Positions 25,506-60,403 of a stretch of 64,000 nt of DNA are shown here, one piece after another; position 1 is the stretch's first letter; the number at the start of each line of letters is the position of its first letter. This DNA is from Acidobacteriota bacterium (GTDB taxonomy: Bacteria > Acidobacteriota > Thermoanaerobaculia > Gp7-AA8), in NCBI GenBank assembly GCA_003223645.1, contig QHVT01000004.1, positions 59,334 to 123,333 on the forward strand, given 5' to 3'. The position numbers were made by a program, and so were the translations under genes. The notes beneath the pieces are model-generated. The model worked only from the letters and a program-made list of their open reading frames with translations, searched no databases and was not told where the DNA came from.

Positions 25506-26594
25506 ATGACTGCCACTCTTCCGCTCGAATCGCAGACCACGGCGACGCGCACCGATCGCATTCCGGTCGCCGTTCTCGGCGCCACCGGCTCCGTCGGGCA
25601 GCGATTCATCCAGCTCCTCGAAAACCATCCGTGGTTTCGCCTCCACGAAGTGGTCGCGTCCGAGCGCAGCGCCGGAAAAACGTACGGCGACGCCGCCGAC
25701 TGGCGACTCGACTCGCTCCTGCCGCGTGACGCGTCGAAGCTGATCGTCAAAGACCTCGGCGCCGGTCTCGAGTCGCGCCTTCTTTTCTCAGGGCTCGATT
25801 CCTCGGTTGCAGGCGAAGCCGAGGAGGAGTACGCGAATCGCGGATGCGCCGTCATCTCCAACTCGCGCAATCACCGCATGGATGACGACGTGCCGCTGCT
25901 GATTCCCGAGATCAATGCCGATCACGTCGGCGCGATCGAAGTGCAGCGGAAACGGCGGCTCGGATACATCGTCACGAACCCGAACTGCAGCGTGATGGGA
26001 CTGGCGATGGTCCTCGCGCCGCTCGAGCGCGCATTCGGCGTCGACAAGGTGCAAGTCACGACCATGCAGGCGATCTCCGGCGCGGGCTATGCCGGCGTCG
26101 CGTCGTACGCGATCCTCGACAACGTGATCCCGTTCATCGGCGGCGGCGAGGAAGACAAGATCGAGAAAGAGCCGCGCAAGATCCTCGGCAAGTGGGACGG
26201 CGCGCATCACATCGACGCGCAGATGACGATCTCCGCGCAGGTGAATCGCGTCCCGACGATCGACGGACATCTGATGACGATCTCCGTGAAGCTGCGCGAC
26301 CATGCGTCGGTTGAAGACGTGCGCGCAGCGATCGAGTCGTTCAGCGGCGAGCCGCAAGCGCTCGGACTTCCATTCGCGCCCAAACATCCGCTGCACTACA
26401 TCGACGCGCCCGACCGTCCGCAGCCGCGGCTCGATCGCGATCGCGAGCGCGGCATGGCCGTCAGCGTCGGCCGCCTCCGCCCGTGCAACGTGCTCGACCT
26501 GCGCATGGTCGCGCTCGTGCACAACACGATTCGCGGCGCCGCGGGCGCGGCGATCCTCAACGCGGAGCTGTTGCAGGCGCGGGGACTGCTGTGA
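25506..26594 (+). CDS. asd: Aspartate-semialdehyde dehydrogenase
   Basis: VLGATGSVGQRF NAD(P) motif, active-site NPNCS, SGAG. Confidence 0.9.
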   Translation: MTATLPLESQTTATRTDRIPVAVLGATGSVGQRFIQLLENHPWFRLHEVVASERSAGKTYGDAADWRLDSLLPRDASKLIVKDLGAGLESRLLFSGLDSSVAGEAEEEYANRGCAVISNSRNHRMDDDVPLLIPEINADHVGAIEVQRKRRLGYIVTNPNCSVMGLAMVLAPLERAFGVDKVQVTTMQAISGAGYAGVASYAILDNVIPFIGGGEEDKIEKEPRKILGKWDGAHHIDAQMTISAQVNRVPTIDGHLMTISVKLRDHASVEDVRAAIESFSGEPQALGLPFAPKHPLHYIDAPDRPQPRLDRDRERGMAVSVGRLRPCNVLDLRMVALVHNTIRGAAGAAILNAELLQARGLL

Positions 26595-26596
26595 GG

Positions 26597-26690
26597 CGAC
26601 GGATGGCGGATGGCAGATGGCGGATGGCAGAAGCGCCACACGGGTGGCGGGGCCATCTGCCATCTGCCATCTGCCATCGGGACGGGCGGC
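26597..26690. repeat. Hairpin element with heptamer-repeat arms: (GGATGGCR)x4 - loop agaagcgccacacgggtggcgggg - (CCATCTG)x3
   Basis: Between asd and lysC. The arms are reverse complements built from GGATGGC/GCCATCY units. Confidence 0.9.
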
Positions 26691-26694
26691 AGCG

Positions 26695-28062
26695 ATGATC
26701 GTCATCAAGTTCGGCGGCACCTCGGTCGGCGACGCGGACCGCGTCGCGAATGCGATCGAGATCGTCGCCGAGCGCAGGCAGCGCAAGCCGATCGTCGTCG
26801 TCTCCGCGCTCTCCGGCGTCACGAACAACCTCGTCGATGCGTCCGAGGCCGCGTGCTCGCAGGACCCGAAGCGCGTGCGCGAGATCATCGCCGCGGTGCG
26901 CCAGCGGCACGAAGACGTCGCGCTGCAGCTCGTGCAGCAGAAGTCCGATTTCTTCGAGTCGTTCATCAAGCAGCTCGACAAACAGATCGAGGAGATCGAC
27001 ACGATCCTGCGCGGCATCGCGCTCCTCGGCGAGATCACGCCGCGCGCGCGCGACAAAGTGATGTCGATCGGCGAGAAGCTGTCATCCGTCCTGTTCGCGT
27101 ACACGATGATGATGCGCGCGCTGCCGGGCGAGCATGTGCATTCCGAGGAAGTGATCTGGACCGATGACCGCTTCGGCGGCGCGACGCCGGACATGGCGAA
27201 GACGCGCGACGCCGCGCAGCGCGTGCTGATGCCGCTCCTCGAGCGCAATCGCATTCCGGTGATGGGCGGCTTCATCGGCCGCACCGAAGCCGGCGCGACG
27301 ACCACGCTCGGACGCAACGGATCGGATTACAGCGCCGCGATCGTCGGCGCGGCCCTCGGCGCAAGCGAAGTGCAGATCTGGACGGACGTCGACGGACTGC
27401 TCACGTGCGATCCGCGCCTCGTGCGCGGCGCGCGCGTCATCGATCGCCTGTCGTTCGACGAAGCCGCGGAGCTCGCATCGTTCGGCGCGAAGCTGCATCC
27501 GCGCACGCTCGAGCCGGCAATCGCGGAGAACGTTCCGGTGCGCGTCCTCAACACGCACAACCCCGCTTCGCAGGGGACGCTGATCACGCGCGTCGTCGAG
27601 AACGCGCCCGCCGGGCCGCGCTCGATTGCGCGCAAGAAAGGCATTGCCGTCGTGCACATCTCGTCGAACAAGATGCTCGGCGCACACGGATTTCTCGCGC
27701 GCCTCTTCGACGAATTCGAGCGGCTCGCGATCTCGGTCGATCTCATCACGACGTCCGAAGTGTCGGTGTCCGTGACGGTCGACGACACGCAGAACCTCGA
27801 CAAACTGGAAGCGCGCTTGCGCGAAGTCGCGGACGTGAACGTCGAAGCCGATCAGTGTGTCATCGCTGTCGTCGGAACGGACCTCCTCGCCGATTCCGCT
27901 GTCGGCGTGCGCGTGTTCGAGGCGCTCCGCGGCATTCGCCTGAAGATGGTCTCCCTCGGACGCTCCGGTCTCAATCTCAGCCTCGTCGTCGACAACGCCG
28001 ACGCCGATCGCGCGGTCGAGTCGATTCATCACGCGCTCTTCGAGGCGCCCGTCGCCGTATGA
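26695..28062 (+). CDS. lysC: Aspartate kinase
   Basis: MIVIKFGGTSV, VVSALSGVTN; C-terminal ACT domains. Confidence 0.9.
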   Translation: MIVIKFGGTSVGDADRVANAIEIVAERRQRKPIVVVSALSGVTNNLVDASEAACSQDPKRVREIIAAVRQRHEDVALQLVQQKSDFFESFIKQLDKQIEEIDTILRGIALLGEITPRARDKVMSIGEKLSSVLFAYTMMMRALPGEHVHSEEVIWTDDRFGGATPDMAKTRDAAQRVLMPLLERNRIPVMGGFIGRTEAGATTTLGRNGSDYSAAIVGAALGASEVQIWTDVDGLLTCDPRLVRGARVIDRLSFDEAAELASFGAKLHPRTLEPAIAENVPVRVLNTHNPASQGTLITRVVENAPAGPRSIARKKGIAVVHISSNKMLGAHGFLARLFDEFERLAISVDLITTSEVSVSVTVDDTQNLDKLEARLREVADVNVEADQCVIAVVGTDLLADSAVGVRVFEALRGIRLKMVSLGRSGLNLSLVVDNADADRAVESIHHALFEAPVAV

Positions 28063-28065
28063 GAG

Positions 28066-28150
28066 GCGGATGGCAGATGGCAGATGGCGGATGGCAGAAG
28101 AGGGTGCCGGGTGGTGGGGCCATCTGCGATCCGCCATCTGCCATCCGGGA
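28066..28150. repeat. Heptamer-armed hairpin (GGATGGCR)n - loop agaagagggtgccgggtggtgggg - (CCATCYG)n
   Basis: Between lysC and dapB. Same architecture as 26597-26690. Confidence 0.9.
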
Positions 28151-28159
28151 GGACGTGCG

Positions 28160-28798
28160 GTGAAGATCGCGCTGCACGGCTACGGCAAGATGGGACACGC
28201 CGTCGAGCGCGTCGCGAAGGAAACGGGACACGAGATCGTGCAGCCGGCCGACGCCGTGGTGCTGATCGATTTCTCTAACGCGAGCGTGCTCGATCGCGCG
28301 ATCGCGACCGCGATCGACAACCACCTCGACCTCGTCATCGGCACGACCGGCTGGAACGATCGCCTCGACGAAGTGCGCGACCGCGTGAAGAACATCGGCT
28401 GCGTCTACGCATCGAATTTTTCGCCCGGCGCAAATGCCGTGTTCGCGCTGGCGCGGCGCGCGGGAGAACTGTTCGCGCGCTTCCCGCAATACGCGGCGGG
28501 GATGGAAGAGCGGCATCACGCGCAGAAGAAAGACGCGCCGAGCGGAACGGCGCTGCGCATTGCGTCCGAGGTGCAGCAGGGAAGCGGGGGAACATTCGAT
28601 CCGCCGATCGCGGCGCTGCGCGTCGGCGCGGAATTCGGACTGCACACGCTCTACTTCGACTCGCCCGATGATCTCGTCGAGATCACGCATCGCGCGCGCG
28701 GCCGCGACGGATTCGCGCGCGGCGCGATCTTTGCGGCGGAGCTCGTGCGAGGGAAAAAGGGATTGTTTCGATTTGATGAATTGCTGGGAAGGGAATAG
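28160..28798 (+). CDS. dapB: 4-hydroxy-tetrahydrodipicolinate reductase (short form)
   Basis: GTG 28160 preceded by gggagg. VKIALHGYGKMG NAD motif, later GTTGW, HHAQKKDAPSGTA. Confidence 0.85.
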   Translation: MKIALHGYGKMGHAVERVAKETGHEIVQPADAVVLIDFSNASVLDRAIATAIDNHLDLVIGTTGWNDRLDEVRDRVKNIGCVYASNFSPGANAVFALARRAGELFARFPQYAAGMEERHHAQKKDAPSGTALRIASEVQQGSGGTFDPPIAALRVGAEFGLHTLYFDSPDDLVEITHRARGRDGFARGAIFAAELVRGKKGLFRFDELLGRE

Positions 28799-28872
28799 GA
28801 CAAATAGGACCTCTAGGACAGATAGGACGCCGATGTCCTATGCGTCCTATCTGTCCTATTCGTCCTAGTTGG
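28799..28872. repeat. Hairpin with (ATAGGAC)n / (GTCCTAT)n repeat arms
   Basis: ggacaaataggacctctaggacagataggacgccgatgtcctatgcgtcctatctgtcctattcgtcctag. A related element lies at 52193-52290. Confidence 0.9.
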
Positions 28873-28882
28873 AGTTAAACAC

Positions 28883-29764
28883 ATGTTTCGTGGCGTCGGC
28901 ACCGCACTGGTCACTCCGTTCCAATCCGACGGCACCCTCGATGAGGGCGCGCTGGCGCGTTTCGTCGATTGGCAAATCGATGAAGGCGTGAACTTTCTCG
29001 TGCCGTGCGGCACCACCGGCGAGAATCCGGCGCTGAGCGCGGAGGAACATCGCCGCGTCGTCGAGATCACGGTGCAGCGCGCGAAGGGGCGCGTGCCCGT
29101 CCTCGCCGGCGCGGGCAACAACAACACAGCGCGCGCGGTCGAGCTCGCGGAGCTCGCCATCGACCTCGGCGCCGACGGCGCGCTCACGATCACGCCGTAC
29201 TACAACAAGCCGACACCCGACGGACTGCGGCGGCACTTCGGCGCGCAGGCCGAGGCGATCGAGAAAAAGAAAAGCGGCTTCCCGATGGTCATGTACAACG
29301 TTCCCGGACGCACGGGACTGAACATGACGGCGGAGACGACGCTGCGCATGGCGCGCGAGATCCCGAACATCTGCGGCGTGAAAGAAGCGTCGGGAAACAT
29401 GGAGCAGATCCTCACGATCCTCCGCGATCGTCCCGAAGGATTCCTCGTCATCAGCGGCGACGACGCGTGGACGCTGCCGCTGCTGGCAATGGGCGGCGAC
29501 GGCGTGGTCTCGGTCGCGAGCAACGAAGTGCCGCGGCTGATGCGGCAGATGGTCGACCGTCGCGACCTCGACATTCACAATCGATTGCTGCCGCTGCTGA
29601 CCGGCAACTTCATCGAGTCGAGTCCGATCCCGGTGAAGACCGCGCTGAAGATGATGGGCATCCTCGAAAGTGATACGGTTCGTCCGCCGCTCGCGCCGAT
29701 TACCGACGCGAATCGCAAGAAACTCGAGGCGATCCTGCGCGAATGCGGCCTCTTGCCGTCATGA
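28883..29764 (+). CDS. dapA: 4-hydroxy-tetrahydrodipicolinate synthase
   Basis: ALVTPF, GTTGE, active-site Lys region (YNVP...K). Stop overlaps the dapD start (ATGA). Confidence 0.9.
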
Positions 29765-30591
29765 TCACCATCGAAGAGCGCGTGAAAGCGCTGAAGACGT
29801 ACACCGAGCGCGATCGCCCCGAGGCGGTCAAGACGATCAGTCTGCTGCTCGTCGAATTGGAGAAAGGGAACGCGCGAGCGGCCGCGCGCGACGAAGACGG
29901 CGTGTGGCGCGCGAACACGTGGGTGAAGGAAGGAATCCTCGCCGCGTTTCGCTGGGGCGTCGCCGCCGAGTTCGCGTCGGGTGCACTGTCGTTCGTCGAC
30001 AAAGACACGATCCCGCCGCGTCGCTTCAAGGCCGCCGACGGAATCCGCATCGTGCCCGGCGGCTCGTCGATCCGGCGCGGCTCATACATCGCCAGGAGCG
30101 TGGTCATGATGCCGCCCGCGTTCGTCAACGTGGGCGCGTACGTCGACGAGAAGACGATGATCGATTCTCATGCGCTGGTCGGCTCGTGCGCGCAAATCGG
30201 CAAAGGCGTGCACATTTCCGCGGCCACGCAGATCGGCGGCGTGCTCGAGCCGGTCGGAAGTCTGCCGGTCATCATCGAAGACGACGTGATGGTCGGCGGC
30301 AACTGCGGTATTTACGAAGGAACCGTCGTGCGCTCGCGCGCCGTCATCGGCGCAGGTGTCGTGCTCACGAAATCGACGCGCGTCTACGACCTGGTGCGCG
30401 GCCAGATCTATCGCGGCAGCGCCGAGCGCCCGCTGGAAATTCCGTACGCCGCGGTCGTCATTCCGGGTTCGCGTCCGGCGGAAGGCACGTTCGCCGAAGA
30501 ACACGGTCTCAATATCGCGACGCCAATCATCGTGAAGTACCGCGACGACAAAACCGACGGCGCGACGGCGCTGGAAGAAGCCCTTCGGTGA
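29761..30591 (+). CDS. dapD: Tetrahydrodipicolinate N-succinyltransferase (hexapeptide-repeat acyltransferase; DapD-like)
   Basis: Left-handed beta-helix hexapeptide repeats ([40 protein letters not shown]...). Operon context between dapA and an aminotransferase. Confidence 0.75.
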
Positions 30592-31697
30592 AAGCCGATC
30601 GCCTCGCGAACATCGAGCTCTCGCTCATCCGCCAGATCAACGCGCTCGCCACGCCCTACTCCATCAACCTCGGCATCGGCGAGCCGAATCTCGCGCCCGA
30701 TGACACGCTGCGCGAATTCGCCGCGCGCGCCGCGACGCTGCCGTGGCAATACTCCGCGAACGCGGGCACGCTGTCGCTGCGCAAGAAATTGTGCGAGGGA
30801 ACGGAGTTCGATCCGAAGACCGAGGCGTGCGTCACCGCGGGCACGCAGGAAGCGCTGTTCGCGATCTTCACCGCGTACGTGAATCCCGGCGACGAAGTGC
30901 TCGTGCCGAATCCCGGCTTCGTGTCGTACGCGACGCTCGCGCGCATCTGCGGCGCAACGCCCGTTACGTATCAGCTCGATCCGCCGGAGTGGCACATTGA
31001 CGTCGACGCGCTGCGAAAAAAGATCACGCCGAAGACGAAGCTGATCGTCGTCAACTCGCCGTCGAATCCCCTCGGCTCGGTGATCGATCGCGAGACATTG
31101 CAGGTGATCGCGGACACCGGCGTGCTCGTCGTCAGCGATGAGATCTATCGCGAGATCTGGTACGACGCGTGGCCGGCGTCGATGGTCGGCATGGGCGACA
31201 ACGTGATCCTGATGAACGGCCTCTCGAAGAGCCACGGCATGACCGGCCTGCGCCTCGGGTGGATTCTCGCGCGCGCCGATGTGATGCAGCCGATCGTCAC
31301 CGCGCATCAGTACATCGCCACGTGCGCGTCCGTTTTCTCGCAGGCGCTCGCGGAGATGATCTTCGATCATCGCGAATGGAACGAGCAGTGGCTCGCCGGC
31401 GTGCGCGAGCAGTTCGCGGCGCAGCGCGAAGCAGCGTTGTACGCGATCCGCCACGAGCTCGACACCGAGCTCGATCCGCCACGCGGCGCGTTCTACGCGT
31501 TCGTGCCGATGCCTGCGTGCAACACGGTGGAGACCGCGAAAGAGCTCGCGACCGACGCCGCGGTGCTCGTGATTCCGGGAATCGCGTTCGGGAAAATGGG
31601 ACAGGGATTCGTGCGGGTCTCGTACGCCGCGCCCGTCGATCAGATAGCGACCGGAATCGAGCGCATCGGACGATGGTTGCGCGCAAAGGAAAGATGA
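30588..31697 (+). CDS. Class I/II PLP-dependent aminotransferase, likely N-succinyl-diaminopimelate aminotransferase
   Basis: GTG start overlapping the dapD stop (GTGA). [22 protein letters not shown] (PLP lysine), fold-type I. Confidence 0.8.
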
Positions 31698-32530
31698 AGG
31701 CAGAAGGCAGAAGGCAGAAGGCAGAAATAAGAAAGCGCCGAGGCACTCGTCTCGCGGTCTTTCTCACTTCTGCCTTCTGCCTTCTGCCTTCTGCCTTCAT
31801 TGCTCTCCCAGTTCACGCCCAAACGCCCGATTACTCCCAGTGGAACCGCGTCCTCTCCACGTACTACAACCCCGCGAAAGGCATGGACTACCGTGCGCTC
31901 AAAGCGCGCGACTTCAAGACCGTGCAGTCGCTGCGACAGCAGCTCGGCAAAGTGAACGTCGCCGCGCTCGATCGCAAGTCGCAGCTCGCGTACTGGATCA
32001 ACGTCTACAACATCAACACCGTCGCTACGGTGCTCGAGGCGTATCCGGTCGACTCGATCCGCGACATCTCGACGGATCTCATCATCCGCCTCAACGTTTT
32101 CAAGAAAGAACGCATCCCGTTCGGAAACGTCCAGCTTTCACTCGACGCCGTCGAGAACGGAAAGATTCGCGAGGGCTTTCACGATCCGCGCATTCACTTC
32201 GCGATCAACTGCGCGGCGAAAACGTGTCCGCCGATCCGGATGGAGGCGTTCAGCGGCCTGAGGCTCGACGCGCAGCTCGACGATCAGGCACGCGCGTTTC
32301 TCAACGGCCCGCACGGCGTCCGCTTCGAGCGCGACGGCGGCACGCTCACCATCCACACGACGAAAATCATGGACTGGTTCAGCGACGACTTCGAAAAATG
32401 GGGCGGCGGCAAAGCGAAGTTCATTCGCAAATACGTCCCTGCCGACAAACAGAAACTGATCGACTCCGCGAAAGAGATCGAGTTCGAGTACGACGACTAC
32501 GACTGGGACCTGAACGACTGGAAGCGCTAG
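31694..32530 (+). CDS. DUF547-domain protein with signal peptide
   Basis: ATG overlaps the aminotransferase stop (ATGA) with an aaggaaag RBS. YWINVYNINTV and FAINCAAKTCPP are DUF547 hallmarks. N-terminal 40 aa are encoded by the GAAGGCA hairpin. Confidence 0.7.
   Translation: MKAEGRRQKAEIRKRRGTRLAVFLTSAFCLLPSAFIALPVHAQTPDYSQWNRVLSTYYNPAKGMDYRALKARDFKTVQSLRQQLGKVNVAALDRKSQLAYWINVYNINTVATVLEAYPVDSIRDISTDLIIRLNVFKKERIPFGNVQLSLDAVENGKIREGFHDPRIHFAINCAAKTCPPIRMEAFSGLRLDAQLDDQARAFLNGPHGVRFERDGGTLTIHTTKIMDWFSDDFEKWGGGKAKFIRKYVPADKQKLIDSAKEIEFEYDDYDWDLNDWKR
31697..31800. repeat. Hairpin with (GAAGGCA)x3 / (TGCCTTC)x3 arms
   Basis: gaaggcagaaggcagaaggcagaaataagaaagcgccgaggcactcgtctcgcggtctttctcacttctgccttctgccttctgccttc. 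Confidence 0.9.
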
Positions 32531-32640
32531 ACAAAAGCAGAAAGCAAAAGGCAGAAAGCAGAAGTGGGAGCGGCGAGACCCAAAACGCTTTCGTCTTTAC
32601 TTCTGCTTTCTGCTTTTTGCTTTCTGCTTTCTGAGCACGC
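32531..32640. repeat. Hairpin with (RGCAGAA)n / (TTCTGCY)n arms
   Basis: aaaagcagaaagcaaaaggcagaaagcagaag...cttctgctttctgctttttgctttctgctttc, following the DUF547 stop. Confidence 0.9.
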
Positions 32641-32667: not shown

Positions 32668-33561
32668 ATGGTCGCGAAAGCACAACGGCTTCCGGTTCCG
32701 CCGCCGCAGGATTCCGTCGCCGCGTCGGAGGTCTCGCTGTATCGCAATCTGCTCAAGATCAAAGACGAACACGCGCTGCGCGATCTCGGCATCTCGTTTT
32801 ATGACGCCGAGACGACCGTGCAGTGGTCGTACAACGCCGACGCCTGGTTCCACGCCGCGTCGACGATGAAGCTGGCCGTGCTCCTCGGCGTGTTCCGCGA
32901 AGTCGATCGCGGGGAGCTCGCGCTCGATGCTCCCGTGCACGTGCGCAACCGCTTCACGAGCATCGTCAACCAGGAAGCGTTCATGCTCGACCTCGGACGC
33001 GACGCCGATCCCGACGTCTACGGGCATCTCGGCAAGACGCTCTCCGTCAAAGAGCTCGCGTATTGGATGATCACCAAGTCGAGCAATCTCGCGACGAATT
33101 TGCTCGTCGATGTCATCGGCATTCCGACGATCCAGCTCGCGCTCGACGAACTGGAGATCCACGGCATCAAAGTGCTGCGCGGCGTTGAAGACCAGCGCGC
33201 GTTCGCAGCGGGACTGAACAACGAAGTGACGGCGCACGGCTTACTGAAAATGCTGCGATTGATCGCCGAGGGGACGGCGTATTCGCAGGAAGCGTGCGAT
33301 GAAATGCTCGACATCCTTCTCGATCAGCAGTATCGCAGCGGCATTCCCGCCGGCCTCCCGAAGGCCGCGCGCGTGGCGCACAAGACCGGCAACATCTCGA
33401 CGGTACATCACGACGCCGGTATCGTGTACCTGGAAGGGAGAAAACCGTACGTGCTGGTGATCCTCACGCAGTTCCCGGCTGAGCAAGGCCGTGGTACGGC
33501 CGTCGCCGAAGTGTCGCGCGACATCTTCAACACGCTCGCCGGGGTCGTGTATGAATCATGA
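32668..33561 (+). CDS. Class-A beta-lactamase-like serine hydrolase, no signal peptide
   Basis: SxxK (ASTMK), SDN-like (KSSNLATN), KTG (HKTGNIS) motifs in class-A spacing. N-terminus is not hydrophobic. Confidence 0.75.
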   Translation: MVAKAQRLPVPPPQDSVAASEVSLYRNLLKIKDEHALRDLGISFYDAETTVQWSYNADAWFHAASTMKLAVLLGVFREVDRGELALDAPVHVRNRFTSIVNQEAFMLDLGRDADPDVYGHLGKTLSVKELAYWMITKSSNLATNLLVDVIGIPTIQLALDELEIHGIKVLRGVEDQRAFAAGLNNEVTAHGLLKMLRLIAEGTAYSQEACDEMLDILLDQQYRSGIPAGLPKAARVAHKTGNISTVHHDAGIVYLEGRKPYVLVILTQFPAEQGRGTAVAEVSRDIFNTLAGVVYES

Positions 33562-34252
33562 CGAAGCGGAACCGGGATTGAAGGTCGTCGACGCCTTCGA
33601 TCTCGATGACGAGCTGCGCTCGCTGCTGAAGCCGGGCGAACTGCTGCGCGACGAACTGGGGCGCCGCCATCGCCTGCCGCGCTATTTCTACGAAATCCCG
33701 TCGCACGAGATCGCGCTCAACATGCGTCTCACGTCGCACTTCGCGATGAACGAGCTCGTGCTCAACGACCTCCGCGAAGCGCCGCGCCTTCAGCAGTGGC
33801 CGCGCTACATCCCCTGCGCAGTGCGCATCCTCGCGAATTATCTCGAGCAGTTCCGCGCCGCGGCCGGCGCATCGGTGCACATCGCCGTCAACGGCGGCTA
33901 CCGGTCGCCGTCGCACAAGCATTCGCAGTACGCGTCGGCGCACATGTGGGGCACTGCCGCCGACGTTTACCGCATCGGATCGACGATCCTCAAAACGAGA
34001 GACGCGATCGAAAAGTACAACGAGATCGCCGAAGACGTCAGCGACGAGATTCGCGTACTCCCTTACGGTCACGACGTCGGCAAAAATGCCGACGACCACG
34101 TCCACCTCGACCTCGGCTACGTCACGCTCGTTCCGCGCGAGATCAGCGAAGACCGCATGGAACAGCCGCAGGAACACCGCCCCCGCTTCGCGTTCGAAGA
34201 GCGGCGGCGGAAGGAGCGGCGGGCGGTGGTGGCGGCGGACAGCGAGACATAG
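33551..34252 (+). CDS. Peptidase M15 family (YcbK/DUF882-like zinc D,D- or L,D-peptidase), no signal peptide
   Basis: NGGYRSPSHKHSQYASAHMWGTAADV and DHVHLDLG match the SGYR...H..G.A.D...H.D zinc site of M15. ATG overlaps the end of the bla-like gene. Confidence 0.6.
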   Translation: MNHDEAEPGLKVVDAFDLDDELRSLLKPGELLRDELGRRHRLPRYFYEIPSHEIALNMRLTSHFAMNELVLNDLREAPRLQQWPRYIPCAVRILANYLEQFRAAAGASVHIAVNGGYRSPSHKHSQYASAHMWGTAADVYRIGSTILKTRDAIEKYNEIAEDVSDEIRVLPYGHDVGKNADDHVHLDLGYVTLVPREISEDRMEQPQEHRPRFAFEERRRKERRAVVAADSET

Positions 34253-34376
34253 GTTGCGCAGTCGCGCCGTTGCGCGGTCGCGAACGGTTCTCGGCTACCG
34301 CGAGACCGCGTAACCGCGCACCTATGTCCGGCCCACCGTTTGCTTAGTTCGCTTTCCGCAGTTCCTAGGTTCCTCC

Positions 34377-35891
34377 ATGCCACCCATCGATCGCAAAGGC
34401 GAGCTCGACAGCGAAATTCGACGTTCCCGGCGGAACTGGCTGGAGATGCCGGCCATCGGGATGGAGTCGGAGTTCAATGTCTGGCTCGATGAAGTCGAGA
34501 TCAATCCCGAGCCGTACTGGAAACATCCGGGCGCGTTTATCGACCGGCCGCTGCTGAAGCGGGAAAAATCTTCCCTGCAACTGCCGACCGGAGGCGCGGT
34601 TTACTTCGACCGCGGCGTCATCGAAGTCGTCACGCCGGTCATCGAGCTCGCGCCGTCCGCCACCGCCCGGATGGTGCGCAACCTGTGGGAACAGATCGGC
34701 TTCGTGCGCGAGCAGCTCACGAAGTGGGGTGAGCAGAACGGACATACCGTTCGTCTCAAGGCCTACAGCACCCATTACAACGTCTCCTACGAGATCCCGA
34801 AGTCGCGGCAGCATGCGCGCCGCAATGTGAAAGCGCTGGCGCTCCTCCTCGCGTATCTCCTGCCCGTGCCGGTAATGATCACCGGCGCAAACCGGCGCTC
34901 GACGGGCGTCGGCGTCCGTCCGCGCGGCAATCGCATCGAGATCACGGTCGACTTCACTCCCGATCCCGGTCTCATGATCGCCACCGCCGCGCTCGTCGTC
35001 GGCATCGTGCGCGAAGTCATGAGCTGGCCGTCGTACGACCTCTCGCTCCTCGAGTCGCTGCCGCTGCCCGTGATCGCGGGCGTCATCCCCGGCAAGCACA
35101 CGACGCGCAAGGGCTGGCTGACGAAAGACTTTCACTATCCGCAGAGTCCGTACACGTCGGACATCGACGCGCCGATCTGGACGACGCAGTTCGGCGAGAA
35201 GAAATCGCTGCGGCAGATCGCGAAAGAAGTCGCGTTCTACTTCCGCTTGTCGATTCGCAAGTACTCCGACCCGTTCAGCCTGCGGCTGCTCTTCGCCATT
35301 CTCGAGGGACGCGCGCCGTCGCTGCTCGATCTCGACGAGCGTCCGAAAGCGTACGAAGACGTCGGCAATCTCTGCCGCTGGGGCGAAGTGATCGAAGAGC
35401 TGCGCGAGTTCGGATCGCACGAACGCCGCACCGAGCCGGCGATCGAGCAGTACGTGATCGAGCGGCATCACGCGCGCGAGCAGCACGAGAGCAATGAGCC
35501 GCAGCCGATTGCGCTGAAAGCGGCAAAGCCGCGCATCGACGATCTCCGTCCGCGTCCGCTGCAGACGCGAGCGGCGATCACGACGTACTACATCGAGCGG
35601 CGCCGCCCCGTCTCGCTCCTCAACGGCAACGGCGGCGACCGGCGCAGAGGACGCGACCGCCGCCGCAACCACTACGCGATTCCGTTTCCCGACCGCCGTC
35701 TCACGCGATCGGCCTACGAGCAGGTCTTCCTCAAGCTCGTCTCCGGCGGACACCTGCGCCTGGGCGACGAGGTGTACACGCCGGTCGGAATGAAGGGGTG
35801 GTATCACGCGATCTTCCGCCGCGACTCCGATGGCGCGGAAAAGCTGCTGACGATCGATCAGCTGCTGAGGAAGATGAACGACTGGATTTGA
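34377..35891 (+). CDS. Hypothetical 504-aa protein; N-terminal half resembles GCS2-type carboxylate-amine ligase (YbdK-like); C-terminal half unassigned, Arg-rich tail
   Basis: IGMESEFNVW (compare LGIELEMQV of YbdK), FDRGVIEVVTPV and YSTHYNVSY (compare HVHVG) are in the same order as GCS2 catalytic motifs. This is a low-similarity call from memory. Confidence 0.45.
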   Translation: MPPIDRKGELDSEIRRSRRNWLEMPAIGMESEFNVWLDEVEINPEPYWKHPGAFIDRPLLKREKSSLQLPTGGAVYFDRGVIEVVTPVIELAPSATARMVRNLWEQIGFVREQLTKWGEQNGHTVRLKAYSTHYNVSYEIPKSRQHARRNVKALALLLAYLLPVPVMITGANRRSTGVGVRPRGNRIEITVDFTPDPGLMIATAALVVGIVREVMSWPSYDLSLLESLPLPVIAGVIPGKHTTRKGWLTKDFHYPQSPYTSDIDAPIWTTQFGEKKSLRQIAKEVAFYFRLSIRKYSDPFSLRLLFAILEGRAPSLLDLDERPKAYEDVGNLCRWGEVIEELREFGSHERRTEPAIEQYVIERHHAREQHESNEPQPIALKAAKPRIDDLRPRPLQTRAAITTYYIERRRPVSLLNGNGGDRRRGRDRRRNHYAIPFPDRRLTRSAYEQVFLKLVSGGHLRLGDEVYTPVGMKGWYHAIFRRDSDGAEKLLTIDQLLRKMNDWI

Positions 35892-35962
35892 GGGCCTCCT
35901 GGCCTCCTGGCCTCCCAGCCTCTGAGCCTCCCAGAAACCCTTAGACGCCTGGAGGCTTGGCG
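35892..35962. repeat. Hairpin with (GGCCTCC)n / (GGAGGC)n arms between convergent genes
   Basis: gggcctcctggcctcctggcctcccagcctctgagcctcccag...cctggaggcttggcggcctggaggct. Confidence 0.85.
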
Positions 35963-35971
35963 GCCTGGAGG

Positions 35972-36208
35972 CTAATCCTGTGATCGCCGCTCGAGGTCCT
36001 CGCGCAACGCGCGTCCCGGCGTGCGGTCCTTCAATCGCGGGCGCTCGAGAATGCTCGCCAGCAAATCGGTCACGCCCCAGGCGATGAACGACACGGCGGC
36101 CATGGTGAAGAGATTCGAGACCGTTTGCAGCGGTAAGAGCAGGAACAGCGTGACGGGCACGCCGATGGCCATCACGATCACGCCGACAGTCAGTCTGATT
36201 GCGGACAC
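35972..36208 (-). CDS. Small membrane protein (2 TM), unknown function
   Basis: 78 aa with two hydrophobic segments (LTVGVIVMAIGVPVTLFLLL; AAVSFIAWGVTDLLASIL). Confidence 0.45.
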   Translation of the reverse strand: MSAIRLTVGVIVMAIGVPVTLFLLLPLQTVSNLFTMAAVSFIAWGVTDLLASILERPRLKDRTPGRALREDLERRSQD

Positions 36209-37242: not shown

Positions 37243-37806
37243 ATGGCGAACCGTGCTTTTCTCGCAGTCGCCATGCTCCTGCTGGCCGTGCCGGTCGCGC
37301 AGGCGCAGCAGGATCGCAGCTGTGTCCGCGAACCGCTGGCGCAGCATTGCACCGACTGCAATCCCGAAATTCAAACCGAGTCCGCGCCCGCGGACCTGCC
37401 CGTGCTGCGCTACGCCGACCTCGAGTCGGAGCACAAGCTCTCCGGCCTGGCGAGCTACTACTCGACGTTCTTCGACGGCCGCAAGACCGCGAACGGCGAG
37501 ATTTATCGCAATCGGAAGTTCTCCGCCGCGCACCTCACGCTGCCCCTCGGCACGTGGATCGAAGTGACGGCGCGCGCGACCGGCAAGAAACTGCGCCTGC
37601 GCGTCAACGACCGCGGCCCCTTCGCGAAAAAGTTCTTCCTCGATCTCTCGCAGGCCGCCGCGCGCTTTCTCGGCGTCGACGTCACGGAAGATCGTCACGT
37701 CGAGGCGCACATCATCGCGCTGCCGGGCGAAGAGCCGCCGCCGGAGACGATCGATGTGACGGAGCCCGCGGCCGCCATCGCGTCCGCTACGCCAACGGGA
37801 CAGTGA
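37243..37806 (+). CDS. rlpA: Septal-ring lytic transglycosylase RlpA-like (DPBB domain) with signal peptide
   Basis: GLASYYSTFFDGRKTANGEIY...AAHLTLPLGTWIEVT...LRVNDRGPF is the RlpA double-psi beta-barrel signature. Confidence 0.85.
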   Translation: MANRAFLAVAMLLLAVPVAQAQQDRSCVREPLAQHCTDCNPEIQTESAPADLPVLRYADLESEHKLSGLASYYSTFFDGRKTANGEIYRNRKFSAAHLTLPLGTWIEVTARATGKKLRLRVNDRGPFAKKFFLDLSQAAARFLGVDVTEDRHVEAHIIALPGEEPPPETIDVTEPAAAIASATPTGQ

Positions 37807-38557
37807 AGCAGAACGCGCTTCCGGTGCCCGGCACCGAATCCACCGTCAGCGCGCCGCCGTGGCTCTCGATGACTCGCTTGGCGAGATAAAGTCCGTAGCC
37901 CGGTCCGCCGCCGCGCGCTTTATCGAGCTTGCTCACGCCACCGAGGTCGAAGACCTGGCTGACGTAGCGCGGATCGATGCCGATGCCGTTGTCGCGGATG
38001 CACAACTTCACGTTCGCGGCTTCGGTCGAGCAGTCGATGGCGAGATGACGCTCCCCTTTTTCGCGGTCGGTAAAGAAGAGCGCGTTGCCGACGATCGCGC
38101 CGATCGCCTCGCGCATCTTTTCCGGATCCACGATCACGGTCGGCATTTGATCCGGCATGTCGACTTTCACGCCGCCTTCTTCGATCTGGAAGTTGTACTT
38201 GAGGATCACTTCCTCGACGATCTCGCGCAGCGGCGTCGGCTTGCGCGCGTTCGGTCGCGCGAGCAGCTTCACCATGCCCGACATGTCGTCGAGCACGCGC
38301 TTCATGTTCTGCGCGCTGGAGCGCACGCGCTGGAGAAAATCCTGTCCTTCTTCATCGAGCTTGGCGTTGTAGTCCGTGAGCAGCAGCTCGCTGAAGCCGT
38401 CGATCGCGAAGATCGGCGATTTCAGGTCGTGCGACAGCACGCTGAAGAACCGGACGAGCTCCTCGTGCGATACGGAAGCCTCGGCCGCCTGAGACGGTTC
38501 CACTGTCGTGATGCAAGCCTCCTGCGGGCCGCGAACTGCAACGGTTGAGCCATTCAC
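37787..38557 (-). CDS. Soluble sensor histidine kinase (HisKA + HATPase_c), no transmembrane or obvious sensor domain
   Basis: H-box SHDLKSP, N/G1/G2 boxes (NALFFT, DNGIGI, GGPGYGLYL). Confidence 0.85.
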   Translation of the reverse strand: MNGSTVAVRGPQEACITTVEPSQAAEASVSHEELVRFFSVLSHDLKSPIFAIDGFSELLLTDYNAKLDEEGQDFLQRVRSSAQNMKRVLDDMSGMVKLLARPNARKPTPLREIVEEVILKYNFQIEEGGVKVDMPDQMPTVIVDPEKMREAIGAIVGNALFFTDREKGERHLAIDCSTEAANVKLCIRDNGIGIDPRYVSQVFDLGGVSKLDKARGGGPGYGLYLAKRVIESHGGALTVDSVPGTGSAFCFTVPLA

Positions 38558-39222
38558 TGTTTGCGGAATGCCGCGATCTGTCCCTCGCCCGCGATCGTTC
38601 CTTCGCCGTCATCGCCGGCGACGAGCGCCGTTTTCGGAGGAATGCCGAGGCCCAACTCCACGTCCGGCAAAGACATGAGACGCCGCAGCGCATCGTCATG
38701 CTGCGGATCGAAGCCCGTGTCGATGACGGTGTGCGCGAGCCAAGCGAGGGCGGGGAGGAACGTGCCGCCGCGCATGTCGCGCGTAAAGATCCCGAAACAC
38801 GAAGCCGCCGCGCCGATCGCCGCGATGACCGTGCCGTTCGCGGCCGCGTCGCGCATCGCGATGTCGGTCGGCGACTCGCGAATCGTCGCGAGCAGATTGT
38901 TCGTCACGCCGCCGCCGAGGTAGATCATCCCCGCCGACAAAATCGTGTTGAGATTTTTCTGGCGACGACTGTCGCGACCGCGATAGATCGGAACGTTGAT
39001 CACTTCGAGCGAGGGATCGATCTTCTGAAAGTACGCGCCGAGATGCTGCGCGTATTCGGGCGACCCGGACGCGGTCGGAAGAAACGCGATCGTGCGCCGG
39101 TCGGCCGGCATGCGCGCGACGAGCAGCTCATCGATCTCGCGCGTCTCGCCGAAGGAAAACTCGCCGCCGCCGATCAGCGCGAGCGTGGTCACCGGTGTCG
39201 ACAGACGGACCGCGAGTTTCAT
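38554..39222 (-). CDS. Peptidase S51 family (dipeptidase E/cyanophycinase-like)
   Basis: ATG at 39222 (MKLAVRLSTPVTTLALIGGGEF...). S51 GGG and Ser-nucleophile region. The upstream part of the listed ORF overlaps the SDR gene and is not coding. The 3' end overlaps the HK start by 4 bp. Confidence 0.65.
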   Translation of the reverse strand: MKLAVRLSTPVTTLALIGGGEFSFGETREIDELLVARMPADRRTIAFLPTASGSPEYAQHLGAYFQKIDPSLEVINVPIYRGRDSRRQKNLNTILSAGMIYLGGGVTNNLLATIRESPTDIAMRDAAANGTVIAAIGAAASCFGIFTRDMRGGTFLPALAWLAHTVIDTGFDPQHDDALRRLMSLPDVELGLGIPPKTALVAGDDGEGTIAGEGQIAAFRKQ

Positions 39223-41514: not shown

Positions 41515-41830
41515 GATTCAACGCCGGGATTCCGGGATTCATCCCATGAGCTCTGGGATCGATCCCATGATTTCTGGCATCGATCCCATGAGCTCCGGGA
41601 TCGATCCCATGATTTCTGGCATCGATCCCATGATTTCTGGCATTGATCCCATGATTTCTGGGATCGATGCCATAGATTCTGGCATCGATCCCATAGATTC
41701 TGGGATTCATGCCAGAAATTCTGGGATTCATCCCATAGATTCTGGGATTGATCCCATGAGTTCTGGGATTCATGCCAGGATTCTGGGATTCATGCCAGGA
41801 TTCTGGTATTCGTCCCAGGATTGGGATTGT
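41515..41830. repeat. Tandem array of ~14 degenerate 21-bp units (gatYcatcccatgaKttctgg) between carbonic anhydrase and sucD
   Basis: Direct reading of gatcccatgatttctggcatc gatcccatgagctccgggatc ... . Units are 21 bp (two helical turns) and the region is non-coding between convergent genes. Confidence 0.85.
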
Positions 41831-48494: not shown

Positions 48495-48497
48495 GAA

Positions 48498-48660
48498 GAA
48501 GTGGATGGCGGATGGCGGATGGCCTAGGGCGGATGGCGGATGGCGGATGGCAGATGGCGGGTCGCGGATCGCGGATGGCGGGTCACAGACCGTGGTTTTC
48601 TTCCGCCATCCGCCATCTGCCATCTGCCATCCGCAATCTGCCGTCTGCCATCTGCCTCAT
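48498..48660. repeat. Largest heptamer-armed hairpin: (GGATGGCR)n left arm, central segment, (GCCATCYG)n right arm
   Basis: Direct reading. Both arms are >40 bp of GATGGCG/GATGGCA units and their complement. Confidence 0.9.
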
Positions 48661-52191: not shown

Positions 52192-52192
52192 G

Positions 52193-52290
52193 ACTTTTAG
52201 GACGAATAGGACATCTAGGACAGATAGGATGTCCTAGAAGTCCTATTCGTCCTATTCGTCCTATTCGTCCTACCTGTCCTACCCCGCCTT
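52193..52290. repeat. Hairpin with (ATAGGAC)n / (GTCCTAT)n arms; second member of this family
   Basis: ggacttttaggacgaataggacatctaggacagataggatgtcctagaagtcctattcgtcctattcgtcctattcgtcctacctgtcctacc. Confidence 0.9.
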
Positions 52291-52327
52291 CATCAATTCT
52301 TCATCGCCGCTCCCTACATTGCGCCGC

Positions 52328-54062: not shown

Positions 54063-54124
54063 GGGCTCATAGTCGCATAGGCTCATAGAAACTATGCGCC
54101 CGTGAGCCTGTGAGCCCATGCGCC
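54063..54124. repeat. Hairpin with GGCTCATAG-type repeat arms
   Basis: gggctcatagtcgcataggctcatagaaactatgcgcccgtgagcctgtgagccc, in the divergent region before murQ. Confidence 0.8.
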
Positions 54125-54148
54125 CTGTGGGTGATATCTTCGGTGACG

Positions 54149-60400: not shown

Positions 60401-60403
60401 ATC

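What the first reader, a model, noticed from the sequence alone, without database searches (positions are those of the whole stretch)
32668..35891. Candidate undescribed cytoplasmic peptide-tailoring cluster: bla-like hydrolase + M15 (YcbK-like) peptidase + GCS2-like ligase, beside SLT and RlpA
Three same-strand, overlapping or closely spaced genes encode a class-A beta-lactamase-fold enzyme and an M15 zinc peptidase that both lack signal peptides, then a 504-aa protein. The N-terminal half of that protein carries GCS2/YbdK-like carboxylate-amine ligase motifs in order (ExE, E..TP, HxN/H). Its C-terminal ~200 aa and Arg-rich tail match nothing I recognise. The neighbours are a soluble lytic transglycosylase and RlpA, and the MurNAc recycling operon lies 18 kb away. 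A D-Ala-D-Ala/peptide-bond hydrolase pair next to an ATP-dependent amide ligase is consistent with cytoplasmic re-tailoring or ligation of muropeptide-like or other D-amino-acid peptides, which to my knowledge is not a described system.
Basis: inference. Interest (0 to 1): 0.65.

Follow-up and report, generated by a model that had tools for sequence, protein, structure and literature searches.

The report
Conserved peptidase-peptidase-ligase operon, function unknown
Three adjacent genes encode two cytoplasmic peptidases of cell-wall-peptide type and a new family of ATP-dependent amide-bond ligase; they travel together as one unit in at least two soil bacterial phyla, so they probably form an undescribed pathway whose substrate is still unknown.

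Summary
Three + strand genes are present. The first is a class-A beta-lactamase/PBP-A-like serine peptidase (32668-33561). The second is a divergent M15/LAS zinc peptidase (33551-34252), which overlaps the first by 11 nt. The third is a 504-aa protein (34377-35891). None has a signal peptide.

The 504-aa protein has no Pfam, NCBIfam or PDB sequence match. A confident AlphaFold model places its core in the glutamine-synthetase-fold carboxylate-amine ligase superfamily. The nearest folds are PafA/Dop (E 1e-7), then YbdK/GCS2 (1e-5). All metal and ATP motifs are conserved. After the core come an Arg-rich disordered insert and a small conserved C-terminal domain.

The trio is a real module. It is intact in 56 of 63 Thermoanaerobaculia loci that have enough flank. 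It recurs with overlapping stops and starts in Gemmatimonadota and other lineages, where the flanks are unrelated. The SLT, RlpA, DAP-operon and MurNAc neighbours are lineage-specific synteny and not part of the module.

The function is inferred. The most likely role is cytoplasmic trimming of D-Ala-ended (peptidoglycan-type) peptides followed by ATP-dependent re-ligation or modification. I found no description of this module. I class it as a new ligase family in a known superfamily, set in a new operon architecture.

The parts
32534..32630 (+). Long hairpin built from GCAGAAA-type heptamer repeats. It lies between the DUF547 stop codon and the bla-like start codon, and probably acts as a terminator or insulator separating the trio from the upstream DAP/DUF547 genes.
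   Evidence: Inverted repeat with 32-nt arms, 97% complementary. RNA fold -62 kcal/mol, z -9.3 against shuffles.
32668..33561 (+). Gene 1: a cytoplasmic serine peptidase of the class-A beta-lactamase / PBP-A type (297 aa). Catalytic motifs are S65-T-M-K68 (32860-32871), S138-S-N140 (33079-33087), R171-G-V-E174-D (33178-33192) and K239-T-G (33382-33390).
   Evidence: Pfam Beta-lactamase2 E 2e-52. NCBIfam bla_class_A scores 101 bits, below the 200-bit cutoff. Best solved relative is PBP-A/Tll2115, 2j9o, E 7e-20. The motifs are invariant across two phyla. No signal peptide.
33551..34252 (+). Gene 2: a cytoplasmic, divergent LAS-fold (M15-type) zinc peptidase (233 aa). Motifs are H122 (33905-33916), H131-MWGTAA-D138 (33941-33964) and D181-D-H183-V-H185-L-D187 (34091-34111). 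The C-terminal tail FEERRRKERR lies at 34193-34222.
   Evidence: Peptidase_M15_3 E 4.5e-4 for the window protein. 13 of 17 homologues match, best E 5.5e-6. PHROG 894 endolysin E 2.4e-10. Weak fold hits to Ply500, MepA, LysB4 and LdcB (model pLDDT 66). Invariant residues.
34377..35891 (+). Gene 3: a 504-aa member of an unannotated family of the carboxylate-amine ligase (glutamine-synthetase-fold) superfamily.
   Evidence: No Pfam, NCBIfam or PDB sequence hit. AF2 model pLDDT 85, pTM 0.83. Foldseek hits: PafA 1.3e-7, Dop 3e-7, YbdK 1-2e-5, glutamine synthetases 2e-4 and weaker.
34434..35501 (+). Ligase core (aa 20-375). Motifs are the GhExE signature G28-M-E-S-E32 (34458-34472), Y76-F-D78-x4-E83-x2-T86-P87 (34602-34637), H133-Y-N135 (34770-34787) and N172-RRSTGVGV-R181-P-R183-GN-R186-I-E188-ITV-D192 (34890-34955).
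   Evidence: Invariant or >=90% conserved columns. GhExE is the stated signature of this superfamily (PMC2588565). The same motif order is seen in C. glutamicum PafA as printed.
35508..35684 (+). Arg-rich disordered insert (aa 378-436; 14 Arg in 59 residues) carrying [DE]RR motifs. It is absent from the ~400-aa homologues.
   Evidence: pLDDT below 50. Gapped in the short homologues. Composition and motifs.
35709..35891 (+). Small C-terminal alpha/beta domain (aa 445-504: helix, four strands, helix). It is conserved in every full-length family member (R444, S445, Y447, E448, W475).
   Evidence: pLDDT 89-96. Conservation. Only short, non-significant matches to small uncharacterised phage proteins.
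35893..35974 (+). Hairpin built from GGCCTCC-type repeats directly after the ligase stop codon. It probably marks the end of the transcription unit.
   Evidence: RNA fold -49.4 kcal/mol, z -4.4.

Best explanation
The locus is a self-contained three-gene operon for a cytoplasmic peptide-processing pathway.

Shown:
- Gene 1 is a serine hydrolase of the class-A beta-lactamase/PBP-A family, with every catalytic motif intact.
- Gene 2 is a divergent LAS/M15-type zinc peptidase.
- Gene 3 founds an unannotated family of the glutamine-synthetase-fold carboxylate-amine ligases. It is structurally nearest to the Pup ligase PafA, the depupylase Dop and YbdK, and it has the full set of metal- and ATP-binding residues.
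- None of the three proteins is exported.
- The three genes are inherited as a unit in Thermoanaerobaculia, Gemmatimonadota and further uncultured lineages.

Inferred mechanism:
1. The PBP-A-like enzyme removes a C-terminal D-Ala from a D-Ala-D-Ala-ended peptide. Candidates are a peptidoglycan stem peptide on a nucleotide precursor, or an imported muropeptide.
2. The M15 enzyme cuts the next D-amino-acid bond, in the manner of an LD-/DD-carboxypeptidase or a dipeptidase.
3. The ligase phosphorylates a carboxylate with ATP to form an acyl-phosphate and joins it to an amine. This either re-attaches the trimmed peptide to a carrier (an Mpl-like salvage step) or adds a new residue or amide (a Van-like or amidation-like editing step).

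The Arg-rich [DE]RR segments and the small C-terminal domain probably dock a partner or an anionic ligand.

My confidence that the module is real and the enzyme classes are right is about 0.85-0.9. My confidence that the substrate is a peptidoglycan-type D-amino-acid peptide is about 0.4.
For: Enzyme classes:
- Gene 1: Pfam Beta-lactamase2 2e-52. The nearest solved protein is PBP-A, which is an experimentally shown DD-carboxy/endopeptidase (PMC11189452).
- Gene 2: M15_3 and endolysin profile hits, plus conserved H..D / H-x-H motifs.
- Gene 3: Foldseek hits to PafA, Dop, YbdK and GS with probability 1.00, on a model with pLDDT 85. The GhExE signature and downstream motifs are conserved.

Module:
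- 56 of 63 GTDB loci with enough upstream DNA keep bla-M15-ligase in order. Three more keep all three genes in a rearranged form.
- The trio persists with overlapping stop/start codons and unrelated flanks in Gemmatimonadota and in two further lineages at 41-45% identity.
- A remote ligase homologue pairs with a different LAS peptidase, M74/MepA-like, E 6e-7. This supports a ligase plus D-peptide-metallopeptidase partnership.
- The trio is bracketed by strong hairpins.

Location: no signal peptides.

Conservation: the bla-like gene is conserved at housekeeping level, with median 83% amino-acid identity, above DapA at 79%.
Against: - No substrate evidence exists of any kind.
- The peptidoglycan link rests only on the family affinities of the two peptidases. 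The nearest characterised relatives are distant: about 25-30% identity to PBP-A, and an M15 score below Pfam's cutoff.
- PBP-A and the M15/M74 enzymes normally act outside the cytoplasm.
- The Asp of the M15 H-x6-D zinc motif is Asn in the Gemmatimonadota clade.
- Dop shows that this fold can act as a hydrolase rather than a ligase (PMC7947786).
- The SLT, RlpA and MurNAc genes are not co-conserved with the trio.
- Some ligase paralogues occur alone, or with DUF4261 and an ATP-grasp gene, or inside a DndB/QueC island.
- I could not check whether these genomes lack Mpl, LdcA, MurT or Ddl.
Confidence: 0.45

Rival explanations
1. A Pup-like tagging system. The ligase attaches a peptide or small protein, or a Glu/Asp side chain of a disordered segment, to a lysine of a target, as PafA does. 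The two peptidases process or remove the tag.
For: The best structural matches are PafA and Dop. Like them, the protein has a large ligase domain followed by a small C-terminal domain. Conserved disordered, charged segments travel with the module.
Against: No conserved small Pup-like ORF lies in or next to the trio in any lineage. The 66-78-aa ORF downstream is a two-helix membrane protein, and the Gemmatimonadota operons have no extra ORF. There are no proteasome or ARC/Mpa neighbours. There is no Pfam Pup_ligase hit. The C-termini of the M15 tails are not conserved.
Confidence: 0.12
2. A two-subunit amidotransferase plus a peptidase. The beta-lactamase-fold protein acts as an amidase or glutaminase that supplies ammonia. 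The GS-fold enzyme uses it to amidate a carboxylate, for example D-iGlu or mDAP of a stem peptide. The analogues are GatA/GatB and GatD/MurT.
For: GatB/GatE belong to the same ligase superfamily and work with a separate amidase subunit (PMC2588565). PBP-A, the nearest solved relative of gene 1, is specific for D-iGln-amidated muropeptides. Genes 1-3 are translationally coupled in several lineages.
Against: Gene 1 matches Beta-lactamase2 and not the glutaminase family; no other Pfam hit appears at E <= 0.1. The idea gives no role to the M15 enzyme. There is no evidence for an ammonia channel or a complex.
Confidence: 0.1
3. Handling of a small antimetabolite or secondary metabolite. One version is detoxification of a beta-lactam or dipeptide that targets a cytoplasmic GS-fold enzyme, as tabtoxinine-beta-lactam does. 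Another is synthesis of a gamma-glutamyl-type compound.
For: A cytoplasmic class-A-type hydrolase is unusual. Tabtoxinine-beta-lactam is a beta-lactam inhibitor of glutamine synthetase (abstract of PMC12371491). The trio follows the DAP operon in 42 of 47 Thermoanaerobaculia loci, and from memory tabtoxin is derived from the DAP pathway. GCS2-like ligases have been proposed to make peptide metabolites.
Against: Distribution is near-universal within Thermoanaerobaculia and sequence conservation is very high, which fits a housekeeping role and not an accessory resistance or biosynthesis trait. No biosynthetic genes are co-conserved. DAP adjacency is lost in Gemmatimonadota and other lineages. 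There are no hits in PADLOC.
Confidence: 0.08
4. Gene 3 is not a ligase but a Dop-like ATP/ADP-dependent amidase. In that case the whole module is catabolic, made of three hydrolases that degrade a D-amino-acid- or isopeptide-containing peptide.
For: Dop has the same fold and active-site set, is among the top structural hits, and hydrolyses amide bonds using ADP plus Pi (PMC7947786).
Against: Dop is the only known hydrolase in the superfamily. The gene 3 motif R186-x-E188 resembles the GS/GCS2 ligase form more than the PafA/Dop R-L-H form. Current tools cannot decide between the two.
Confidence: 0.12
5. The three genes are adjacent only by chance, or by local synteny, with no shared function.
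For: Within close relatives the whole region, from the DAP operon to the S51 peptidase, is syntenic. Conservation among those loci alone would therefore prove little.
Against: The trio alone survives when all flanks change, in at least four divergent lineages, with overlapping start and stop codons.
Confidence: 0.02

Closest known systems
PafA (Pup ligase) and Dop (depupylase), carboxylate-amine ligase superfamily
   Same: They are the best structural matches (E 1e-7 to 6e-7). They share the GhExE strand, the Y-x-D...E..T motif, the H-x-N motif and the Arg-rich phosphate-binding strands, in the same order. Both have a large ligase domain followed by a small C-terminal domain.
   Different: About 10% identity and TM-scores of only 0.3-0.4. 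No Pfam Pup_ligase hit. No Pup gene, proteasome or Mpa nearby. The partners are two peptidases instead. The Arg-rich insert is absent from PafA/Dop.
YbdK / GCS2 (gamma-glutamyl-cysteine ligase 2 family, PF04107)
   Same: Same fold (1r8g and 1tt4, E 1-2e-5; TM up to 0.47 normalised on the target). Same catalytic motif order, including an R-x-E motif in the last strands.
   Different: No sequence-level relationship is detectable. The window protein has an extra helical region, a disordered insert and a C-terminal domain. The gene context is different.
VanA/VanX/VanY-type cytoplasmic reprogramming of peptidoglycan precursors
   Same: The logic is the same: a cytoplasmic M15 (LAS) peptidase and a DD-carboxypeptidase activity encoded beside an ATP-dependent amide- or ester-forming ligase. 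This comparison rests on established knowledge of the van operon.
   Different: The ligase here has the GS fold, not the ATP-grasp fold. The carboxypeptidase candidate is a serine PBP-A-like enzyme, not VanY. There are no VanH or VanRS genes. The module is a conserved core trait of whole classes and not a mobile resistance cassette.
Peptidoglycan peptide salvage: LdcA plus Mpl (E. coli type)
   Same: Cytoplasmic trimming of the stem peptide, followed by ATP-dependent (ADP plus Pi, acyl-phosphate) re-ligation of the peptide to UDP-MurNAc. This is chemically the kind of reaction a GS-fold ligase could perform.
   Different: Mpl is a Mur-ligase-fold enzyme and LdcA is an S66 peptidase. None of the three proteins here belongs to those families. 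Whether these genomes lack Mpl or LdcA was not testable.
PBP-A (Tll2115) of Thermosynechococcus elongatus
   Same: It is the nearest solved relative of gene 1 (E 7e-20). They share the SxxK, SxN and KTG motifs.
   Different: PBP-A acts on the cell wall outside the cytoplasm. Gene 1 has no signal peptide, a longer omega-loop region and an invariant R-G-V-E-D motif.

Membership tests
Carboxylate-amine ligase (glutamine-synthetase-fold) superfamily | GS-type saddle of conserved beta strands with the active site on its concave face | tested here: met
   Foldseek probability 1.00 to PafA, Dop, YbdK and many glutamine synthetases, on a model with pLDDT 85.
Carboxylate-amine ligase (glutamine-synthetase-fold) superfamily | GhExE signature on the first core strand, which is distinctive for this superfamily (PMC2588565) | tested here: met
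   G28-M-E30-S-E32. G28, E30 and E32 are conserved in >=90% of aligned homologues. The definition is quoted.
Carboxylate-amine ligase (glutamine-synthetase-fold) superfamily | ATP-dependent formation of an acyl-phosphate and an amide bond | not testable with these tools
   Needs enzymology. Dop shows that the fold can also hydrolyse.
GCS2 / YbdK (PF04107) | Match to the family profile, or a profile-level relationship to YbdK | tested here: not met
   No Pfam hit at E <= 0.1. hhalign of the family alignment against E. coli YbdK gives probability 0.2.
Pup ligase / Dop (PF03136) | Match to the family profile | tested here: not met
   No Pfam hit at E <= 0.1. The family profile finds no PafA or Dop chain in the PDB even at E <= 10.
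Pup ligase / Dop (PF03136) | Genomic linkage to pup, proteasome or Mpa/ARC genes | tested here: not met
   None found in the window or in any of about 90 related loci.
Class A beta-lactamase / PBP-A family (PF13354) | Family profile match plus the SxxK, SxN and KTG catalytic motifs | tested here: met
   E 2e-52 over the full model. STMK, SSN and KTG are invariant in nine orthologues from two phyla.
Class A beta-lactamase (true beta-lactamase, NCBIfam NF033103) | Score above the curated equivalog cutoff | tested here: not met
   101 bits against a cutoff of 200.
Class A beta-lactamase / PBP-A family | Export to the periplasm or cell wall (signal peptide) | tested here: not met
   No hydrophobic N-terminal segment in the window protein or its orthologues.
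Peptidase M15 (LAS-fold zinc peptidases) | Family profile match | tested here: inconclusive
   The window protein scores 20.8 bits against a cutoff of 23.2. 13 of 17 homologues match, best E 5.5e-6. PHROG endolysin family E 2.4e-10.
Peptidase M15 (LAS-fold zinc peptidases) | Zinc ligands H-x(3-6)-D plus a later His | tested here: inconclusive
   H131-x6-D138 and H183/H185 are present in Thermoanaerobaculia. D138 is Asn in the Gemmatimonadota clade.
Peptidase M15 (LAS-fold zinc peptidases) | LAS fold | tested here: inconclusive
   Model pLDDT is only 66. The top fold hits are LAS enzymes (Ply500 E 0.045, MepA, LysB4, LdcB), but none reaches E <= 0.001.
VanHAX(Y)-type precursor reprogramming | ATP-grasp D-Ala-D-X ligase with VanX/VanY and VanH | tested here: not met
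   The ligase has the GS fold. No VanH-like dehydrogenase lies in the module.

The most novel reading that the evidence does not exclude
The 504-aa protein defines a previously unrecognised, PafA/Dop-like family of ATP-dependent ligases. Together with a cytoplasmic PBP-A-like serine peptidase and an M15 peptidase, it forms a new housekeeping pathway in Acidobacteriota (Thermoanaerobaculia) and Gemmatimonadota. The pathway would be either an Mpl/LdcA-independent route for editing or salvaging peptidoglycan stem peptides, or a new covalent peptide-tagging chemistry that uses the conserved [DE]RR-rich disordered segments.
Probability: 0.3. Interest if true: 0.75.

Novelty: new variant of a known kind. 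Interest (0 to 1): 0.55.

Why it matters
Thermoanaerobaculia and Gemmatimonadota are abundant and almost entirely uncultured soil bacteria. Here a gene trio is conserved as strongly as core biosynthetic enzymes, and one member belongs to a family that no database names.

If the ligase acts on cell-wall peptides, it would be a fourth fold used for stem-peptide ligation or editing, after the Mur ligases, the ATP-grasp ligases and MurT/GatD. It would also show that class-A beta-lactamase-type enzymes have an ancestral cytoplasmic job.

If it acts on proteins, it would extend PafA-like chemistry beyond pupylation.

Either way the family is small and well delimited, and it has a confident model. 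That makes it directly testable by expression and substrate screening.

Tried and rejected
- Sequence searches of the 504-aa protein and of its family profile against Pfam, NCBIfam, PDB, PADLOC and PHROGs found nothing.
- hhalign of the family profile against E. coli YbdK showed no signal.
- Foldseek against viral structures gave nothing significant for the core. It gave only short matches of the C-terminal domain to small uncharacterised phage proteins.
- I considered the 66-78-aa ORF downstream (35972-36208, - strand) as a Pup-like tag. I rejected it because it is a two-helix membrane protein on the SLT strand.
- I considered SLT, RlpA, the histidine kinase and the S51 peptidase as parts of the system. 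I rejected them because they are lost in the more distant loci, whereas the trio is kept.
- I considered the DAP operon as part of the system. It is present in 42 of 47 Thermoanaerobaculia loci with a trio and more than 7 kb of upstream sequence, but it is separated from the trio by hairpins and is absent elsewhere. I treat it as lineage-specific synteny.
- An Rfam scan of the whole window found no riboswitch or other RNA family.
- The promoter and terminator consensus scans were uninformative.
- Literature searches for this gene combination found no description. The Iyer et al. 2009 amidoligase survey (PMC3268129) is not held, so I could not check whether it lists this family.

Full report
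**1. The observation**

Gene 1 (32668-33561, 297 aa) matches Pfam Beta-lactamase2 over the full model (E 2e-52).

Gene 2 should start at ATG 33551, which gives 233 aa. That is the start used by public gene calls and supported by the homologue alignment. It overlaps the stop of gene 1 by 11 nt.

Gene 3 (34377-35891, 504 aa) follows after 124 nt. It has no hit in Pfam, NCBIfam or PDB sequences.

None of the three has an N-terminal hydrophobic segment. The neighbouring RlpA-like and DUF547 proteins clearly do. Orthologues from other lineages also lack signal peptides. The exact 504-aa protein is on record as a hypothetical protein of an Acidobacteria MAG, and its closest relatives are labelled Thermoanaerobaculia.

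**2. The 504-aa protein**

An AlphaFold2 model built on 27 homologues is confident (pLDDT 85, pTM 0.83). It has three parts:
- a compact core, about aa 20-375
- a disordered stretch, aa 378-436
- a compact helix, four-strand, helix domain, aa 445-504

Foldseek against the PDB returns only carboxylate-amine ligases: PafA (1.3e-7), Dop (3e-7 to 6e-7), YbdK/GCS2 (1-2e-5), then many glutamine synthetases. Identity is about 10% and TM-scores are 0.3-0.47. This is therefore a superfamily-level relationship.

The family alignment shows four blocks that are invariant or nearly so:
- G28-M-E-S-E32
- Y76-F-D78-x4-E83-x2-T86-P87
- H133-Y-N135
- N172...R181-P-R183...R186-x-E188...D192

The first block is the GhExE signature that Iyer et al. 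describe as distinctive for this superfamily (PMC2588565). The same order of motifs is visible in C. glutamicum PafA (GIETE, YLDVGSHPEYATAE, CHENY, RSRP...RRLHVIVGD) as printed.

Family membership fails for both named relatives. There is no PF04107 or PF03136 hit. The family profile finds no PDB chain. hhalign against E. coli YbdK is negative. The protein therefore represents an unannotated family inside a known superfamily.

The family is narrow. It has thousands of near-identical metagenomic copies, but only 369 representatives at 50% identity, many of them fragments.

**3. The 'unrecognised' C-terminal part**

The Arg-rich region is an insert specific to the Thermoanaerobaculia clade. Homologues of about 400 aa go straight from the core to the C-terminal domain.

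The C-terminal domain is conserved in all full-length members (R444, S445, Y447, E448, W475).

A short motif, [DE]-R-R-x-x-[DE]-R-R, recurs in three places:
- the ligase insert
- the C-terminal tail of the M15-like protein of the same clade
- a C-terminal extension of the Gemmatimonadota ligases, which have no insert

I cannot explain this motif. It could bind a nucleotide or a polyanion, or it could dock a partner.

**4. The two peptidases**

The closest solved relative of gene 1 is PBP-A/Tll2115 (E 7e-20). PBP-A is a DD-carboxy/endopeptidase with a preference for D-iGln muropeptides (PMC11189452).

Gene 1 scores well below NCBI's cutoff for true class A beta-lactamases (101 against 200 bits). 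Its STMK, SSN and KTG motifs and an R-G-V-E-D omega-loop motif are invariant in nine orthologues.

Across 66 loci gene 1 is the best conserved gene of the region. Its median identity is 83%, against 79% for DapA and 66% for the ligase.

Gene 2 is a divergent LAS/M15 protein:
- Its Pfam score is just under the cutoff. 13 of 17 homologues match, best E 5.5e-6.
- It matches a phage endolysin family at 2.4e-10.
- It has the motifs H131-x6-D138 and D-D-H183-x-H185-x-D187.
- D138 is Asn in Gemmatimonadota.
- Its model is only moderate (pLDDT 66). LAS enzymes (Ply500, MepA, LysB4, LdcB) top the fold search, but none is significant.

**5. Is it a unit?**

Yes.
- Among the 80 best GTDB loci, all Acidobacteriota MAGs, 63 have enough upstream DNA to judge. 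Of these, 56 show bla-M15-ligase in order on one strand, three have all three genes rearranged, and four are solo paralogues.
- Some solo paralogues come from genomes that also hold a trio or part of one, for example L075 and L079, which come from one MAG.
- The DAP/lysine operon (asd, lysC, dapB, dapA, dapD, aminotransferase) lies upstream in 42 of 47 loci.
- SLT and RlpA lie downstream in 33 of 51 loci.
- In the more distant loci only the trio remains.
- In Gemmatimonadota the three genes form a tight operon with overlapping stops and starts, set between unrelated genes. The taxon names come and the loci.
- Two further lineages, at 41-45% ligase identity, have the same trio.
- A 39%-identical ligase converges on a gene for a different LAS peptidase, M74/MepA-like at E 6e-7.

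There are exceptions. One homologue sits with DUF4261 and a Ddl-like ATP-grasp gene. Another lies in a DndB/QueC/TGT island.

In the window the trio is bracketed by two strong hairpins: -62 kcal/mol with z -9.3, and -49 kcal/mol with z -4.4.

**6. How it most likely works**

Shown: three non-exported enzymes of the stated classes, each with intact catalytic motifs, inherited together.

Inferred: the nearest characterised relatives of both peptidases cut bonds next to D-amino acids in peptidoglycan peptides. The only abundant cytoplasmic molecules of that kind are nucleotide- or lipid-linked precursors, D-Ala-D-Ala, and imported muropeptides.

A GS-fold ligase makes an acyl-phosphate and couples it to an amine. 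That is the same overall chemistry as Mpl or the Mur ligases. Two readings follow:
- **Trim-and-religate salvage:** pentapeptide to tetrapeptide to tripeptide, then re-attachment to a carrier.
- **Trim-and-replace editing:** Van-like replacement of a residue, or amidation.

I give the peptidoglycan-type substrate about 0.4. The rivals are Pup-like tagging (0.12), a Dop-like hydrolase (0.12), an amidotransferase (0.10), antimetabolite handling (0.08) and chance adjacency (0.02).

**7. Comparison with known systems, and novelty**

The closest structural relatives are PafA/Dop and YbdK. The closest systems by logic are VanA/X/Y and LdcA/Mpl. Family membership fails for each (see the membership table).

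No paper in the searchable library describes this gene combination. The Iyer et al. 2009 amidoligase survey could not be read.

I rate the finding as a new variant of a known kind: a new family within a known superfamily, in a new conserved operon.

**8. Verdict**

Its interpretation is partly supported. The enzyme classes and the co-conservation hold. The GCS2 family label, and the use of the SLT, RlpA and MurNAc neighbours as evidence, do not hold. Interest is 0.55. The finding is solid and testable, but the function is still inferred.

Noticed in passing
window 28067-28147, 28801-28871, 31694-31800, 32534-32630, 35893-35974, 41534-41783, 48495-48661, 52188-52282, 60308-60403: Most of these sites lie between the predicted genes, and each carries a long hairpin whose arms are tandem 7-nt repeats. 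The heptamer differs from site to site (GGCAGAT, TAGGAC., GGCAGAA, GCAGAAA, GGCCTCC and others). Spurious ORFs read through them as 'MADGRWRMADG' or '[10 protein letters not shown]'. They look like a genome-wide terminator or REP-like element class of unusual construction.
   Followed up: partly
window 35595-35669 and 34193-34222; L085, L090 and L091 ligase C-termini: A motif [DE]-R-R-x-x-[DE]-R-R (it fits 'RRxxxR') stays with the module but changes position. It sits in the ligase insert and the M15 tail in Thermoanaerobaculia, and in a ligase C-terminal extension in Gemmatimonadota. Its function is unknown.
   Followed up: partly
window 26302-31697 (+ strand); asd lies further upstream: A DAP/lysine biosynthesis operon (asd, lysC, dapB, dapA, dapD, aminotransferase) runs directly upstream on the same strand, followed by a secreted DUF547 protein. 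No dapE or dapF is in the cluster.
   Followed up: partly
L004 8046-9250: In one MAG, a frameshifted second copy of the M15-like gene and a TIR-domain-like ORF are inserted between the bla-like and M15-like genes. This may be an assembly error or a real insertion.
   Followed up: no
L058 4072-9998: About 6 kb is inserted between the M15-like gene and the ligase. It includes ORFs that I judged, from their N-terminal sequences only, to look like two short-chain dehydrogenases and an FAD-linked oxidase.
   Followed up: no
L093 5408-10002: A ligase homologue (55% identity) lacks the bla and M15 partners. It is flanked instead by a DUF4261 protein, an unknown 244-aa protein and a Ddl-like ATP-grasp enzyme.
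   Followed up: partly
L087 8001-10064; L086 8001-9287: Two remote ligase homologues (39-40% identity) have different contexts. One converges on a Peptidase_M74 (MepA-like) gene in a plasmid-like region with MqsA- and ParA-type genes. The other lies in a DndB/TGT/QueC/PTPS (7-deazaguanine DNA-modification-like) island.
   Followed up: partly
P0265 (648 aa, metagenomic): One representative reads as an M15-like N-terminal part joined to a ligase-like part, with garbled stretches. It is either a frameshifted assembly of adjacent genes or a real fusion.
   Followed up: no
window 52319-58026: A secreted PF00144 beta-lactamase-family protein, a MurQ-like SIS protein, a NagA-like amidohydrolase and a NagB-like isomerase lie 16-22 kb downstream of the trio. 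I saw no equivalent genes within the 7-10 kb flanks of the remote trio loci; the distance at which they sit in the window was never examined in other loci.
   Followed up: partly
window 38554-39222 (- strand) and 37787-38557 (- strand): An S51 (cyanophycinase/dipeptidase E family) peptidase and a histidine kinase without an obvious partner regulator are syntenic with the trio in the closer Thermoanaerobaculia loci only.
   Followed up: no
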